A stretch of 64,000 bases of DNA from assembly GCA_009914755.4 (NCBI GenBank), contig CP068257.2, forward strand, positions 18,272,001 to 18,336,000, given 5' to 3'. Shown piece after piece: positions 1-51,093 of this stretch. The notes under the pieces were generated by a model. That model was given only the letters and a program-made list of their open reading frames with translations. It was not told where the DNA came from and did not search any database. The stretch comes from the human T2T-CHM13v2.0 reference genome, Homo sapiens. Position 1 is the stretch's first letter. Each line of letters opens with the position of its first letter. The translations under genes were made by a program, and so were the position numbers.

Positions 1-737
1 ATGATTTTATATACACCAACATATACATTCTCTATGAAGTATTTCCATGGCTCTGTGTTGTTTGATGACACACAGAAATCCATTCTGCTTTGCACTCACA
101 TAGAGCACAGGTTTGACAGAAACAGTGCTGGTGATTGGATAGCAGTGCCATTGCCTAAGTGTCTTCTTATTTTGCCAAGCACATAATTATTTTCAAACCA
201 GTCAGTAAGTTGAGTGGCTTCTTCAGGCAAATGAAGCTTTGAAAGTTCCTAGAATGTCTTCAGCTGGAAGGAATTCCAATGCAGGCAAATGACACAGTTT
301 TAAGCTAAGGTTTTCATTGTTGTGATATTTGTGTGGCTCATCCACCCATCTACATTTTCTGCCAAATGTATTGGGCTGAATGGAGGAAAACTAACGTTAT
401 TGGTAACACTTTGAAATCCACTTTTAAAATCCTTGACCACGCCCAATTCCAAATCTGTCATGATGGTGTGGGATTCAAATGAAATGCATTTTCTTCTGTA
501 AAGTCCACCAGATCTTCAAATAAGCATTTATAAAGTGCTTCATTTGTTCCAGTCATTAATACATAAACAAGCAAATAAGTTATAGAATTTGTGGATCCAA
601 CAGGGGCATGACTTGTATATAGTTGATTAAAAAAACAGTGGGGACAGTTTAGAAAGTGCCATCCCTTAGCCTGAGTGAAGCATTTGCCAGTTTTTCTATG
701 TTAGATTTAATATTAAGTACAAAAACTCTATATTCGA

Positions 738-1045
<308 letters not shown>

Positions 1046-1089
1046 TCTTTCTTTTTCAACAGTCAATTCTGTAATCAAGAATAGTTCAC

Positions 1090-1435
1090 TGTTCCTGTGT
1101 TAGTATGCTAAGGATACTGGTCTCCAGCTCCATCCATGTGCCTGCAAAGGACATGATCTCATTCTTTTATGGATACATAGCGTTCCATGGTGCATATGTA
1201 CCACATTTTCTTTTGATGAGAACACATGGACACATAGATGAGAACAACACACACCAGGGCCTTTCAGAAGCTGGAGGGTGGGAGGAAGGACAGGATTAGG
1301 AAAAATAACTAGGGGTACTAGGTTTACTATCTGGATGATGAAATAATCTGTACAACAGGCCCTCATGACACACCTTTACCTATGTAACAAACGTGGACTT
1401 GTACCCCTGAACTTAAAAGTTAAAAAAAAAAAAAA
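1090..1435 (+). mobile_element. L1 3'-end fragment (older L1PA/L1PB-like) with 5' inversion: 1090-1213 antisense of ORF2 C-terminus, 1214-1435 sense 3'UTR plus poly-A
   Basis: 1214-1421 matches the L1 3'UTR sense strand (gagaacacatggacaca...tacctatgtaacaaacgtggacttgtacccctgaacttaaaag), followed by a14 tail. 1090-1213 (ctgttcctgtgttagtatgctaagg...ccatccatgtgcctgcaaaggacatgatctcattcttttatgg...ccacattttcttt) is the reverse complement of the L1 region immediately upstream. Flanked by aagaatagttca at 1077-1089 and 1434-1446 (TSD). Confidence 0.85.
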
Positions 1436-1446
1436 GAATAGTTCAT

Positions 1447-1730
1447 GGCTATGCAAAGTGGCTCAAGCCTTTTATCCCACCACTGGGAGGCTGAGATGGG
1501 AGAATCCCTTGATCCCAGGAGTCTCAGACCACACTGGGCAACATGGCAAAACCCCAACTCCACAAAATATGAAAATATTAGCCGTGCATGGTGGCTCGCG
1601 CCTGTAGTCTCAGCTAATTGGGAGTCTGAGGTGGGAGGATCACTTGATTCCCAGATGTCAAAGCTGCTGTGAGATGTGATCATGCCACTGTGCTATAGCC
1701 TGTTCAACAGAGCGAGACTCTGCCTCAAAG
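1447..1730 (+). mobile_element. Alu (AluJ-like, diverged) SINE
   Basis: ggctatgcaaagtggctcaagcc...gggaggctgagatgggagaatcccttgatcccaggagtctcagaccacactgggcaacatggcaaaaccccaactccacaaaatatgaaaatattagccgtgcatggtggctcgcgcctgtagtctcagc...gagcgagactctgcctcaaag. Many CpG to TpG changes. Flanked by aagaatagttcat (1434-1446) and aaggaatagttgttcat (1731-1747). Confidence 0.9.
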
Positions 1731-2254
1731 AAGGAATAGTTGTTCATTTAATGTGTTTTGTCACTGAAGGAACCTCAATATCTGAAAGTGTCTTCAGTTC
1801 ACAACGTCACTGAGCTTGTTAAATTCTTTTTATTCTCTGACAAAGAGAGTTTTGGAAGGCAAGCATGGTTCTATGTTAAGAGGCAGAAGGTGTACACGAT
1901 TGAATAATTTGGCAGGGGAGATTTCTTGTATTTTTCTCCGGTGTTTTTACTTTTATGATCTTCAAAGCACTCTGCACTTGTATTGAAGGGTGGCTGTGGT
2001 CTACACAGTTTGTAAGTAATTTATTGTCCATCTGAAAGTCTGGTTATTACTTGGCCATTGCATTAAGCAATTTTCTGCTTTTTCAGTACCAATAATAATC
2101 AGCTTTTAGACTTTATCTTTCATCATTAAGTAGCCTCGTATACTTACTTATCACAGCCTTTTGGTGAGGGAACAATTTCACTGTTCTCTCCTATTGTGTG
2201 GTAAGGAACACAGTAAGAAGAAATGATAGTTAATTTCCTCCAATGCCAAATATG

Positions 2255-41062: not shown

Positions 41063-42803
41063 GTAATAAGGTATAAGGAAGGGGTCCAGTTTCCATTTTC
41101 TGCATATGGCTGGTCAATTCTGCCAGCATCATTTATTAAATATGGAATCATTTCCTTATTGCTTGTTTTTGTCAGGCTTGTCAAAAATCAGATGGTTGAT
41201 GTGTGGTTTTATTTCTGAGTTCTCTATTCTGTTCCATTGATCTGTGTACAAGTACCATGTTGTTTTGGTTACTGTAGCCTTGTAGCATAGTTTGAAGTCA
41301 GGTAGCGTGATGCCTCCAGCTTTGTTCTTTTTGCTTAGGATTGTCTTGGCTATATGGGCCCTTTTTTGGTTCCATATGAAATTTAAAGTAGTTTTTTTCT
41401 AATTCTATGAAGAAAATCAATGGTAGTTGGGGATATAGCACTGAATCTATAAATTACTTTAGCAGTATGGCCATTTTCATGATATTGATTCTTCCTATCC
41501 ATGAGCATGGAACGTTTTTCTGTCTGTTTGTGTTGTCTCTGATTTCCTTGAGCAGTGGTTTGTAGTTCTCCTTGAAGAGGTCCTTGACCTCAATTGTTAG
41601 CCGTATTCCTAGGTATTTTATTCTCTTGTGGCAAAAATTAACTCAAGGTGGATTAGACACTTAAATGTAAAACCCAAAACTATAAAAACCCTAAAAGAAA
41701 ACCTAAGCCATACTATTCAGGACCTAGGCATGGGCAAAGATTTTATGATGAGATCATCAAAAGCAATTGCTACAAAAGCAACAATTGACAAATGGGATCT
41801 AATTGCATTAAAGAGCTTCTGCACAGCAAAATAAACTATCATCAGAGTGAACAGGCAACCTACAGAATGGGAGAACATTTCTGCAATCTGTCTTTCTGAC
41901 AAAGGTCTAATATCCTGTATCTACAAGGAACTTAAGCAAATTTACAAGGATAAAAATGAACAATCCCATTAAAAAGTGGGCAAAGGATAGGAATACACAC
42001 CTCTCAAGAGAAGGCATACATGCAGACAACAAACATATGAAAAAAAGCTCAACATCACTGATGATCAGAGAAATGCAAATCAAAACCACACAGTGAAATA
42101 TCATCTTGTGCCAATCAGAAAGGCAATTATTAAAAAGTCAATAAACAGATGCTGCAAGGTTGAGGAGAAATAGGAACATTTTTATGGTGTTGGTGGGAAT
42201 GGAAATTAGTTTAACCATTGTGGAAGATAGTGTAGTGATTCCTCGAGAATCTAGAACCAGAAATACCATTTGACACAGCAATCCCTTTACTGGGTATACA
42301 CACCCAAAGGAATATAAAGCATTCTATTATAAAGATACATGCACACATATGTTCATTGCATCACCATTTACAATAGCAAAGATGTGGAATTAACCTAAAT
42401 CCCCATCAATGATAAACTGGGTAAAGAAAATATAGTACATATACACCATGGAATACTATGCCACCATAAAAGGAAGATCATGTCCTTTGCAGGGACATGG
42501 ATGAAGCTGGAAGCTATTATTCTCAGTAAACTAATGCAGGAATAAAATAACCAAACACTGCATGTTTTCACTTACAGTGGGAGCTGAACACATGGACACA
42601 GGGAGCGGAACAATAAACTCTGGGGCCTCTTGGGGAGGTGAGGGAGCATCAGGAAAAATAGCTAATGCATGCCAGGCTTAATACCTAGGTGATGGGTTAA
42701 TAGGTGCAGCAAACCATCATGGCACACATTTACCTACGTAACAAACCTGCACATGCTGCGCATGCACTCTGAAACTTAAAATGAAATAAAATTTAAAAAA
42801 AGA
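41063..42803 (+). mobile_element. 5'-truncated L1 (older L1PA/L1PB-like) with 5' inversion: 41063-41633 antisense (ORF2 aa ~765-953), 41634-42803 sense (ORF2 aa ~956-end, 3'UTR, A-tail)
   Basis: Antisense part: ataaggaaggggtccagtttccattttctgcatatggctggtcaattctgccagcatcatttattaaatatgg...gtaccatgttgttttggttactgtagccttgtagcatagtttgaagtcaggtagcgtgatgcctccagc. Sense part: ORF 41628-41834 (+) [40 protein letters not shown] compared with L1 ORF2 [39 protein letters not shown]. 3'UTR ..gggttaataggtgcagcaaaccatcatggcacacatttacctacgtaacaaacctgcacatgctg..gaaacttaaaatgaaataaaatttaaaaaaag. Confidence 0.88.
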
Positions 42804-47330: not shown

Positions 47331-50389
<3,059 letters not shown>

Positions 50390-51093
50390 TATCAATTCTA
50401 ATGTCTTACTTTTTATCTCTGATTTTATTTATTTAAGTTGTCTTTCACTTTTCCTCAGAGTCACCAAAGTTTTTGAATATTGTTTATCTTTTAAAAAAGC
50501 AACTGTTTATTTTATCTATATTTTGTGTTTAGTTTTTTGTCTCAATTTGTTTCCTCTTGAATATCATTTATTTTCTTCTAATAATTTGGGGTTTAGTGTG
50601 TTTTTATTTAGTTCTTTGAGGTGCTATGTTAGGTAGTTTATTTGTGATCTGTTTTCCTTCTGATGTAAGTTTTTATTGCAAGAAACTTCCCTCTTAGAAA
50701 TGTGTTTAACTGTGTTCTATAGGTTTTGATATGTTTCATTTCCACTTTCATTTGTCTTAAACATTTTTAAATTTTCCTTTTAATGTCTTTACCCATTGGT
50801 TGTTTGGGAACATTTTGTTTAATTTCTACATATTTGTAAAGTTTCTGTATTTCCTCTGTTATTGATTTTTAGTTTTATACCATTGTGCTCAGTAGAGATA
50901 CTTGATGTAATTTTAATCTTCTTAAATTTCATTTTGTCTCATGGTCAAATATATGGTCAAATATATGATCAAATATATTGTCTCGTGGTCAAATATATAT
51001 CTATATTTGATCTATGTTCTATGTGCAACAGAGAAGGATGTATATTTTGTACCTTTTAGTTGGAATGTTCTGCAAATGTCTGTTAGGCCCATT

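What the first reader, a model, noticed from the sequence alone, without database searches (positions are those of the whole stretch)
1077..1747. One retrotransposon target site used twice: triplicated TSD aagaatagttca flanking an L1 fragment and an adjacent Alu
The motif aagaatagttcac (1077-1089), aagaatagttcat (1434-1446) and a degraded copy aaggaatagttgttcat (1731-1747) bracket first an inverted L1 3' fragment (1090-1435) and then an AluJ-like element (1447-1730). The simplest reading is that the Alu inserted first (its right TSD is the most diverged copy). Later an L1 endonuclease nicked at exactly the same position at the left Alu TSD, duplicating the same 12-13 nt again. This would be a directly visible case of re-use of an L1-endonuclease hot spot. 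It also gives the relative order of the two insertions.
Basis: seen in the sequence. Interest (0 to 1): 0.55.

Follow-up and report, generated by a model that had tools for sequence, protein, structure and literature searches.

The report
Retrotransposon target site triplicated (L1 + Alu)
Two jumping genes, an old Alu and a fragment of an old L1, landed one after the other in the very same 12-13 bp spot of primate DNA, leaving three copies of that spot; this is real but is an already described phenomenon ("target site triplication").

Summary
AAGAATAGTTCA occurs exactly twice (1077-1088, 1434-1445), flanking an L1 3' end. A degraded third copy, GAATAGTT[GTT]CAT (1734-1747), closes a full-length AluJb-like element (1447-1726). 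Both repeat pairs exceed chance (p<=5e-5; p~0.001-0.006).

The L1 is not simply inverted. It is a + strand, 5'-truncated, 5'-inverted (twin-primed) insertion: antisense ORF2 end 1089-1213, sense 3'UTR 1214-1421, then A14.

A MULE transposase homologue aligned across the reconstructed empty site fits best with one ancestral copy of the motif.

A middle target copy between the L1 tail and the Alu 5' end excludes a template-switch chimera and 3' transduction. That leaves two TPRT events at one site.

The order Alu then L1 is favoured but not shown:
- Non-CpG divergence is 15.8% for the Alu and about 11-12% for the L1. After stratifying by base class, z is about 0.85.
- The L1 TSD pair is perfect and the Alu's right copy is damaged.
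- Only the left copy keeps the original nick context.

L1-first remains possible, and no orthologous loci were reachable.

The phenomenon is published: "target site triplication" (Weber 2006; Lee 2015) and exact site re-use in NF1 (Wimmer 2011). This is an ordinary new instance of low interest.

The parts
1058..1076 (-). Left flank of the original target (…AACAGTCAATTCTGTAATC). It is part of a decayed MULE/MuDR-type transposase ORF on the - strand.
   Evidence: The stitched translation aligns to MULE protein P0001 without a break across this flank and the TSD.
1077..1088 (+). Target-site copy 1, AAGAATAGTTCA: the left TSD of the L1.
   Evidence: Exact 12/12 match to 1434-1445. 1 of 20000 random pairs reach this score. 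It is preceded by TC, giving the bottom-strand site TCTT|GA.
1089..1213 (-). L1 segment in antisense orientation. It corresponds to the ORF2 C-terminal coding end (KKMWYI…LTQEQ) and is the 5'-inverted arm of a twin-primed insertion.
   Evidence: It matches the + strand of a - strand L1 at 47599-47723 with 81.6% identity. See also the alignment. It shows 12/122 mismatches to the 79-copy consensus.
1214..1421 (+). L1 3'UTR in sense orientation, L1PB-like by recollection. About 43-46 nt of L1 are missing between this arm and the inverted arm.
   Evidence: The consensus was built from 79 metagenome-contaminant copies.
1422..1435 (+). Uninterrupted A14 run. It comprises the L1 poly(A) tail, and its last two A's overlap the start of the TSD.
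   Evidence: Read directly from the sequence.
1434..1446 (+). Target-site copy 2, AAGAATAGTTCAT. It is the right TSD of the L1 (1434-1445) and also the left TSD of the Alu (through T1446).
1447..1726 (+). Full-length dimeric Alu, closest to AluJb/AluJo. Mismatch is 20.4% overall and 15.8% at non-CpG sites.
   Evidence: Alignment to consensus sequences written from memory. Those consensus sequences were validated on 45 other Alus.
1727..1733 (+). AAAGAAG: the short, degenerate remnant of the Alu A-tail. It cannot be separated from the A-rich start of the TSD.
   Evidence: family D5.
1734..1747 (+). Target-site copy 3, GAATAGTT[GTT]CAT: the right TSD of the Alu, carrying a 3-nt GTT duplication.
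   Evidence: family D5. Significance is p of about 0.001-0.006.
1748..2100 (-). Right flank of the original target (TTAATGTG…). It is the upstream part of the same MULE-like fossil ORF.
   Evidence: tblastn of P0001 gives NALRARIKRVKRAE…VP aligned to NSLCQRIKRI*QAQ…VP.

Best explanation
This is a target-site triplication produced by two separate L1-endonuclease/TPRT insertions into one site.

Reconstructed original sequence: …CAGTCAATTCTGTAATC|AAGAATAGTTCA(T)|TTAATGTG…, lying inside an old MULE-type transposon fossil.

Most likely sequence of events:
1. An AluJb-type RNA was inserted first. The bottom strand was nicked at 5'-TCTT|GA-3' and the top strand about 13 nt downstream. This gave TSD-Alu-A(n)-TSD.
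2. The left TSD copy still carried the complete original nick context: upstream flank plus TSD start.
3. The site was later nicked again at the same place, with the top strand cut 12 nt downstream, 0-1 nt short of the Alu 5' end.
4. An L1 RNA (L1PB-like) was copied by twin priming. One cDNA started from the poly(A). A second started from the top-strand 3' end annealed inside the ORF2 3' region.
5. The result was a 5'-truncated, 5'-inverted 345-bp L1 flanked by a second, perfect duplication of the same 12 nt.

Shown: the anatomy, the TSDs, the twin-priming architecture, and a single-copy ancestral motif (by proxy).
Inferred: the order of the two events, and that the first nick was identical to the nucleotide.

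The confidence given (0.68) is for the whole statement including the order Alu then L1. That two separate TPRT events used one site, in either order, I put at about 0.9.
For: Anatomy:
- Three copies at the exact element boundaries, with both elements in the + orientation.
- Significance: 1/20000 for the L1 pair and 28-113/20000 for the Alu pair.
- The L1 is split into an antisense ORF2 end and a sense 3'UTR, with about 43-46 nt missing at the inversion junction and an A14 tail. This is the textbook twin-priming layout, and about 30% of recent L1 insertions are 5'-inverted (PMC2912911).

Single ancestral copy:
- MULE homologue P0001 (42% identity, E=1e-36) aligns collinearly across the site only when one copy is kept. 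Scores are 47.4 bits for one copy, 42.0 for none, 44.7 for three, and a split HSP for two. The conserved F-L-I residues straddle the junction of TSD and left flank.

Order:
- Alu non-CpG divergence is 37/234 = 15.8%, at the top of the 7-17% range of 15 other AluJ copies.
- L1 divergence is about 11-12%, below the 13.6-14.2% median of its family sample.
- The L1 TSD pair is 12/12 identical, while the Alu's right copy has an indel plus A-to-G changes.
- The L1 tail is a pure A14, while the Alu tail is AAAGAAG.
- Only the left TSD copy keeps the original TC|AAGAAT nick context.

Precedent:
- Independent insertions at an identical site with the same TSD size are documented in NF1 (PMC3219598).
- Target site triplication is described as consecutive retroposition at a common site (PMC1687206).
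Against: - The order is not statistically secured. Stratified by base class, the Alu-L1 divergence gap is +4.4 points at G/C sites and +1.2 points at A/T sites, z of about 0.85.
- The L1 consensus is a pooled family consensus, and the Alu consensus was written from memory.
- The 5' junction of the inverted L1 arm shows no perfect microhomology with the target end. Only 4.6% of 5'-inverted L1s lack microhomology (PMC2912911).
- The A-rich TSD start merges with both A-tails, so identity of the first nicks is compatible with the data but unproven.
- The Alu A-tail is unusually short.
- No orthologous locus could be examined.
Confidence: 0.68

Rival explanations
1. Same two-event triplication, opposite order. 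The L1 inserted first into the empty site with a 12-nt TSD. Later an Alu was inserted with its first nick in or at the end of the T-run opposite the L1 A-tail. Its second nick fell 1 nt beyond the L1's second nick. The Alu TSD is then A(k)GAATAGTTCAT.
For: - A-rich tails are favoured entry points, and the A-rich 5' part of Alu TSDs is typical (PMC2836564).
- The ungapped match AAAAAAAGAATAGTT / AAAGAAGGAATAGTT (D5) fits a TSD that starts inside an A-run.
- In this order no coincidence of first nicks is needed.
- The right TSD copy keeps the full original second-nick context.
- An Alu abutting an L1PB-like tail occurs elsewhere (L081).
- The divergence difference is not significant after stratification.
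Against: - The Alu is the more diverged element in every comparison.
- The supposedly older L1 TSD pair is perfect while the supposedly younger Alu pair is damaged.
- From established knowledge of L1 EN (not tested here), a nick inside a homopolymer T-run, or at TCTT|TT, lacks the purines 3' of the cut that the enzyme prefers.
- Only 1 of 103 L1PB-like 3' ends in the sample has an abutting Alu.
Confidence: 0.22
2. Back-to-back double insertion. One L1 RNP, or the same open lesion, served two RNAs in quick succession at the same break. This is the 'very same break twice' idea raised by Weber 2006. Both elements would then be the same age.
For: - The possibility is discussed for target site triplications in PMC1687206.
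- The ages of the two elements are statistically indistinguishable after stratification.
- AluJ and this L1 family have overlapping divergence ranges.
Against: - The point estimates differ: 15.8% against about 11-12%.
- The three TSD copies are unequally decayed, and so are the tails.
- No mechanism is known that regenerates a staggered break after completed integration.
- Independent re-use of identical sites in unrelated patients shows that no such coupling is needed.
Confidence: 0.07
3. A single retrotransposition event. Either a chimeric cDNA arose by RT template switching from Alu RNA to L1 RNA, or an L1 3' transduction carried a downstream Alu.
For: The two elements are adjacent, in the same orientation, and both depend on L1 machinery.
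Against: - Either model predicts one TSD pair bracketing the whole insert and no target sequence inside it.
- Here 11-13 non-tail nucleotides identical to the outer TSD sit between the L1 poly(A) and the Alu 5' G.
- Weber 2006 uses this same criterion.
Confidence: 0.02

Closest known systems
Target site triplication (TST) of L1-mobilised retroposons. Sources: Weber 2006, PLoS Genet, PMC1687206. Lee et al. [quoted passage not shown]
   Same: Two retroposons lie side by side in the same orientation and share one target sequence, which is therefore present three times. [quoted passage not shown]
   Different: The published sets seen here concern snoRNA-retroposon + SINE pairs and Alu + Alu pairs. 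This case pairs an Alu with a twin-primed, 5'-inverted L1 fragment. I could not read Lee 2015 or El-Sawy 2005 to check whether L1 + Alu pairs are listed there.
Recurrent de novo insertions at identical L1-EN sites in NF1 (Wimmer et al. 2011, PMC3219598)
   Same: The same nick site was used twice by independent events. In one case the orientation and the TSD size (15 bp) were also the same.
   Different: Those events are on different chromosomes in unrelated patients, so no triplication results. Here both events are fixed on one haplotype and are tens of millions of years old.
Twin priming / 5'-inverted L1 insertion (Ostertag & Kazazian 2001, from own knowledge; Kojima 2010, PMC2912911)
   Same: An antisense 5' arm and a sense 3' arm with poly(A). 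The arms are adjacent in L1 coordinates with a small loss at the junction, and the TSD is of normal length.
   Different: There is no perfect microhomology at the 5' junction, a class that makes up only 4.6% of 5'-inverted L1s.
Insertion hot spots in nested transposable elements and A-tails (Levy, Schwartz & Ast 2010, PMC2836564)
   Same: L1-dependent elements repeatedly choose the same positions. The first nick is at TTTT|AA-like sites, and a second nick lies at a roughly fixed distance downstream.
   Different: That work is a statistical survey across paralogous copies, not two hits at one physical locus.

Membership tests
Target site triplication by consecutive TPRT events | Three direct copies of one target sequence, each located exactly at an element boundary | tested here: met
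   1077-1088 and 1434-1445 are identical. 1734-1747 matches with a GTT duplication. Significance is p<=5e-5 and about 0.001-0.006.
Target site triplication by consecutive TPRT events | Both inserts carry TPRT hallmarks: same orientation, with the A-rich 3' end abutting a TSD copy | tested here: met
   The L1 has an A14 tail at 1422-1435. The Alu retains only a short degenerate remnant, AAAGAAG.
Target site triplication by consecutive TPRT events | The TSD begins at an L1-endonuclease-type site (bottom strand TTTT|AA or a variant) | tested here: met
   The bottom strand reads 5'-TCTT|GA-3'. This is a pyrimidine run followed by purines and matches 4 of 6 consensus bases. Compare the variant sites in Table 2 of PMC3219598.
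Target site triplication by consecutive TPRT events | The empty site holds the target sequence once | tested here: inconclusive
   Only a proxy test was possible. Alignment of MULE homologue P0001 scores best with one copy: 47.4 bits against 42.0, a split HSP, and 44.7.
Target site triplication by consecutive TPRT events | The two insertions occurred at different times, with an intermediate state in some lineage | not testable with these tools
   No primate genome collection was available. Divergence estimates lean towards an older Alu but are not significant.
5'-inverted (twin-primed) L1 insertion | An antisense 5' arm joined to a sense 3' arm ending in poly(A), with the arms neighbouring in L1 coordinates | tested here: met
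   Query 1-123 matches 47599-47723 in plus/plus orientation. Query 127-335 matches 47552-47358 in plus/minus orientation. About 43-46 nt are missing between the arms.
5'-inverted (twin-primed) L1 insertion | Microhomology between the target 3' end and the L1 at the 5' junction | tested here: not met
   The target reads …GTTCA and the L1 antisense reads …GTTTTC|TGTTCC. There is no perfect overlap, only an interrupted match. This feature is typical rather than obligatory: 4.6% of cases lack it.
AluJ (AluJb/Jo) SINE | A full-length dimeric 7SL-derived element that lies closest to the AluJ consensus | tested here: met
   Non-CpG mismatch is 15.8% to AluJb and 16.2% to AluJo, against about 21% to AluSx and AluY. 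The consensus sequences were written from memory and validated by AluY and AluS copies at 0.9-3%.
L1PB subfamily | The 3'UTR matches the curated L1PB consensus better than L1PA or L1MA | not testable with these tools
   No Repbase or Dfam library was available. The family consensus built from 79 copies agrees with my recollection of the L1PB 3' end. The name is therefore a lead, not a test.
Template-switch chimera / L1 3' transduction | A single TSD pair brackets the composite, with no target sequence inside | tested here: not met
   A complete internal TSD copy lies at 1434-1446, between the L1 tail and the Alu 5' end.

The most novel reading that the evidence does not exclude
The Alu and the L1 were inserted back-to-back by one persisting L1 ribonucleoprotein or one persisting lesion. 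That would be a processive 'double TPRT' regenerating and re-cutting the same staggered break. This locus would then be a fossil of a mechanism not yet demonstrated.
Probability: 0.07. Interest if true: 0.5.

Novelty: new member of a known kind. Interest (0 to 1): 0.17.

Why it matters
It adds one clean, fully dissected example of nucleotide-level re-use of an L1-endonuclease site. The example shows that a twin-primed L1 can be the partner of an Alu in a target site triplication. Such loci matter in a modest way:
- As caveats for using retroposon presence or absence as homoplasy-free phylogenetic markers.
- For models of what defines an insertion hot spot.

Nothing here changes current understanding.

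Tried and rejected
1. Orthologous or intermediate-state loci. Exact-protein look-ups of the two ORFs spanning the L1 and the Alu/TSD/poly(A) found no record. None of the 120 metagenome contigs carrying the L1 motif is this locus. A scan of viral contigs for the left junction gave nothing. The window holds no recognisable gene that could anchor an orthologue search.

2. Pre-existing tandem repeat. Rejected: TRF finds only the (ACAA)n tail of the upstream Alu.

3. The 13th base, C1089 against T1446, as a mutated TSD base. Rejected in favour of an L1-derived C, because it continues the L1 antisense sequence.

4. Template-switch chimera and 3' transduction. Rejected because of the internal TSD copy.

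5. Sub-family refinement of the L1 consensus by clustering. One main group of 70 copies emerged and the target divergence was unchanged at about 11%.

6. A data-derived AluJb consensus from a genome-contig scan. Only 36 hits came back, too few to build one. They were used instead to validate the consensus sequences written from memory.

7. Paralogous copies of the flanking transposon among the held sequences. None found.

8. Lee et al. 2015 and El-Sawy & Deininger 2005 could not be read. Only their titles are cited.

Full report
**Observation**

The window is primate DNA. It contains an AluY copy 1.8% from consensus, L1PA-type L1s, and other primate repeats.

The sequence at 1057-1760 reads:
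…CAGTCAATTCTGTAATC | AAGAATAGTTCA | C TGTTCCTGTG…(L1)…AACTTAAAAGTT A14 (the last two A's belong to the next copy) | AAGAATAGTTCA T | GGCTATGCAAAGTGGCTCAAGCC…(Alu)…GAGACTCTGCCTC | AAAGAAG GAATAGTT GTT CAT | TTAATGTG….

- The 12-mer AAGAATAGTTCA occurs exactly twice in the 64 kb. Looser matches are not enriched: 13 observed against 17 expected.
- The repeat finder reports the exact 12-nt pair at spacing 357. It also reports an ungapped 15-nt pair, AAAAAAAGAATAGTT / AAAGAAGGAATAGTT, at spacing 298.
- Against random equally spaced pairs from the same window, the L1-flanking pair is reached by 1 of 20000 pairs. The Alu-flanking pair is reached by 28 of 20000, or by 113 of 20000 when only the non-A core is used.
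- TRF finds no tandem array apart from the (ACAA)n tail of the neighbouring Alu.

**What the two inserts are**

*The L1.*
- BLAST of 1090-1433 against the window shows that its first ~123 nt match the + strand of a - strand L1 (47599-47723, 81.6%). They are therefore antisense L1.
- The remainder matches the same L1 in the opposite sense (47552-47358).
- Alignments with three other L1 3' ends in the window show two arms. 1089-1213 is the reverse complement of the ORF2 C-terminal coding end (…KKMWYI…LTQEQ). 1214-1421 is the start of the 3'UTR through to the element's end, followed by A14.
- About 43-46 nt of L1 lying between the two arms are missing.
- This is the classical product of twin priming. 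The insertion is + oriented, 5'-truncated and 5'-inverted, not 'an inverted fragment'. Roughly 30% of lineage-specific L1 insertions have this form (PMC2912911).
- C1089 continues the L1 antisense sequence (CAGGAACAG), so the L1 TSD is exactly 12 nt with no mismatch.
- There is no perfect microhomology at this 5' junction. That is unusual but known: 4.6% of 5'-inverted L1s lack it.

*The Alu.*
- 1447-1726 is a full-length dimeric Alu, closest to AluJb/AluJo. Mismatch is 20.4% overall and 15.8% at non-CpG sites, against about 21% non-CpG to AluS/Y.
- I wrote the consensus sequences from memory. They are validated by other copies lying 0.9-3% (non-CpG) from the AluY and AluSx versions.

**The empty site**

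No orthologous locus could be obtained. The flanks, however, turned out to be a decayed MULE/MuDR-type transposase gene on the - strand.

- The stitched translation hits Pfam MULE at E=0.004.
- It also hits a 295-aa metagenomic MULE protein, P0001, at 42% identity and E=1e-36.
- The alignment runs without interruption from the TSD-encoded residues into the left flank: ELFLITELTV aligned to DTFLIRDSEV. The conserved F-L-I straddles the boundary of TSD and left flank.
- tblastn of P0001 was run against reconstructions holding 0, 1, 2 or 3 copies of the motif. One copy gives the best collinear N-terminal HSP at 47.4 bits. No copies gives 42.0 bits with an 8-residue gap. Two copies give a split, frame-broken HSP. 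Three copies give 44.7 bits with a 7-residue insertion.
- The best HSP used the 12-nt version. The 13-nt version introduces a +1 frameshift. I attribute that to one of the many frameshifts in this fossil, because the junction CATTTAATG at copy 3 was never broken by an insertion.

The motif was therefore most probably present once in the host sequence, as ordinary transposase coding DNA. This is a proxy test with only a margin of a few bits.

**Mechanism**

- A target copy sitting between the L1 poly(A) and the Alu 5' G rules out a chimeric cDNA made by template switching. It also rules out an L1 3' transduction. Both of those give one TSD pair around the composite. Weber 2006 uses the same argument (PMC1687206).
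- What remains is two TPRT events at one site.
- The site is a moderate L1-EN site: bottom strand 5'-TCTT|GA-3' against the consensus TTTT|AA.
- The two second-strand nicks lie 12 nt (L1) and 13 nt (Alu) downstream, so they are 0-1 nt apart.
- The A-rich start of the TSD merges with both tails. Identity of the first nicks is therefore compatible with the data but not provable.

**Order of the two events**

I built a family consensus for the L1 from 79 copies. These were recovered from human-contaminated metagenome contigs that share a 20-nt motif of the 3'UTR.

- The target L1 differs from that consensus at about 11-12% of sites. The individual counts are 37/315; 37/307 after removing CpG-like columns; and 36/330 against the main cluster of 70 copies.
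- This is below the family median of 13.6-14.2%.
- The Alu's 15.8% non-CpG divergence is at the top of the 7-17% range of 15 other AluJ copies.
- Part of the raw difference comes from base composition. At G/C sites the values are 19.4% (Alu) against 15.0% (L1). At A/T sites they are 11.0% against 9.8%. By my calculation from those counts, the combined z is about 0.85.

Further weak pointers to Alu-first:
- The L1 TSD pair is 12/12 identical, while the Alu's right copy carries a GTT duplication and neighbouring A-to-G changes.
- The L1 tail is a pure A14, while the Alu tail is the remnant AAAGAAG.
- Only the left TSD copy keeps the whole original nick context. The right copy has an A-run in place of the upstream flank.

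Pointers the other way:
- A-tails are favoured entry points (PMC2836564).
- An Alu entering the L1 tail needs no coincidence of first nicks.
- The right copy preserves the second-nick context.

A simple branch-length model gives a likelihood ratio of only about 2-6 from the TSD copies. I put Alu-then-L1 at about 0.7, L1-then-Alu at about 0.2, and a near-simultaneous double event at under 0.1.

**Comparison with what is known**

- The phenomenon has a name. [quoted passage not shown] That paper interprets them as consecutive retroposition at a common site and discusses both the independent-hit and the 'same break twice' models.
- Lee et al. [quoted passage not shown] I could not read them.
- Wimmer et al. 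2011 document three NF1 sites each hit twice by independent de novo insertions, once with the same orientation and the same 15-bp TSD.

This locus is therefore a further instance of a known kind. The only slightly unusual aspect is that one partner is a twin-primed L1.

**Verdict**

- The order is plausible but unproven.
- Novelty and interest are low.

Noticed in passing
window 1-735, 1058-1076, 1748-~2100 (- strand): The DNA that received the insertions is a decayed MULE/MuDR-type transposase gene. Pfam MULE scores E=0.004. It is 42% identical to a 295-aa metagenomic MULE protein, P0001, at E=1e-36. Human Repbase lists only Ricksha as MuDR-superfamily (PMC5753468), so this may be an autonomous Ricksha-like copy with much of its ORF still recognisable.
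   Followed up: partly
window 736-1044: An AluS (9.7% mismatch overall, 5.7% at non-CpG sites) with an (ACAA)n tail sits in the same orientation. It lies only about 32 bp of original sequence upstream of the triplicated site. Three TPRT insertions therefore hit about 50 bp of original DNA.
   Followed up: partly
window ~47350-50400: A young L1 has its ORF2 C-terminal two-thirds on the - strand (a 605-aa ORF at 47556-49373, plus 49345-49692). An ORF2 N-terminal piece lies on the + strand (49769-50389). This looks like a second 5'-inverted (twin-primed) L1 in the same window.
   Followed up: no
L121, L122, L133, L138, L139, L142 (GTDB 'Roseivirga sp.' MAG, contigs CBDIHZ0100000xx): Several contigs of a bacterial MAG used as a species representative are packed with Alu elements. 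They are human contamination. Many short low-coverage contigs of other 'bacterial' assemblies also carry Alus.
   Followed up: no
L081 1-560 (metagenome contig, oriented with the L1 in sense): An AluS is inserted directly after the tail of an L1PB-like 3' end (…AAAAGTTAAAAAATAAATGA|CTGGGCGTGG…). This was the only such case among 103 L1PB-like 3' ends that had downstream sequence.
   Followed up: partly
window 42423-42789 (+) and 32259-32622 (-): Two further old L1 3' ends with a normal, colinear layout. They were used as references for mapping the inverted and sense arms.
   Followed up: partly
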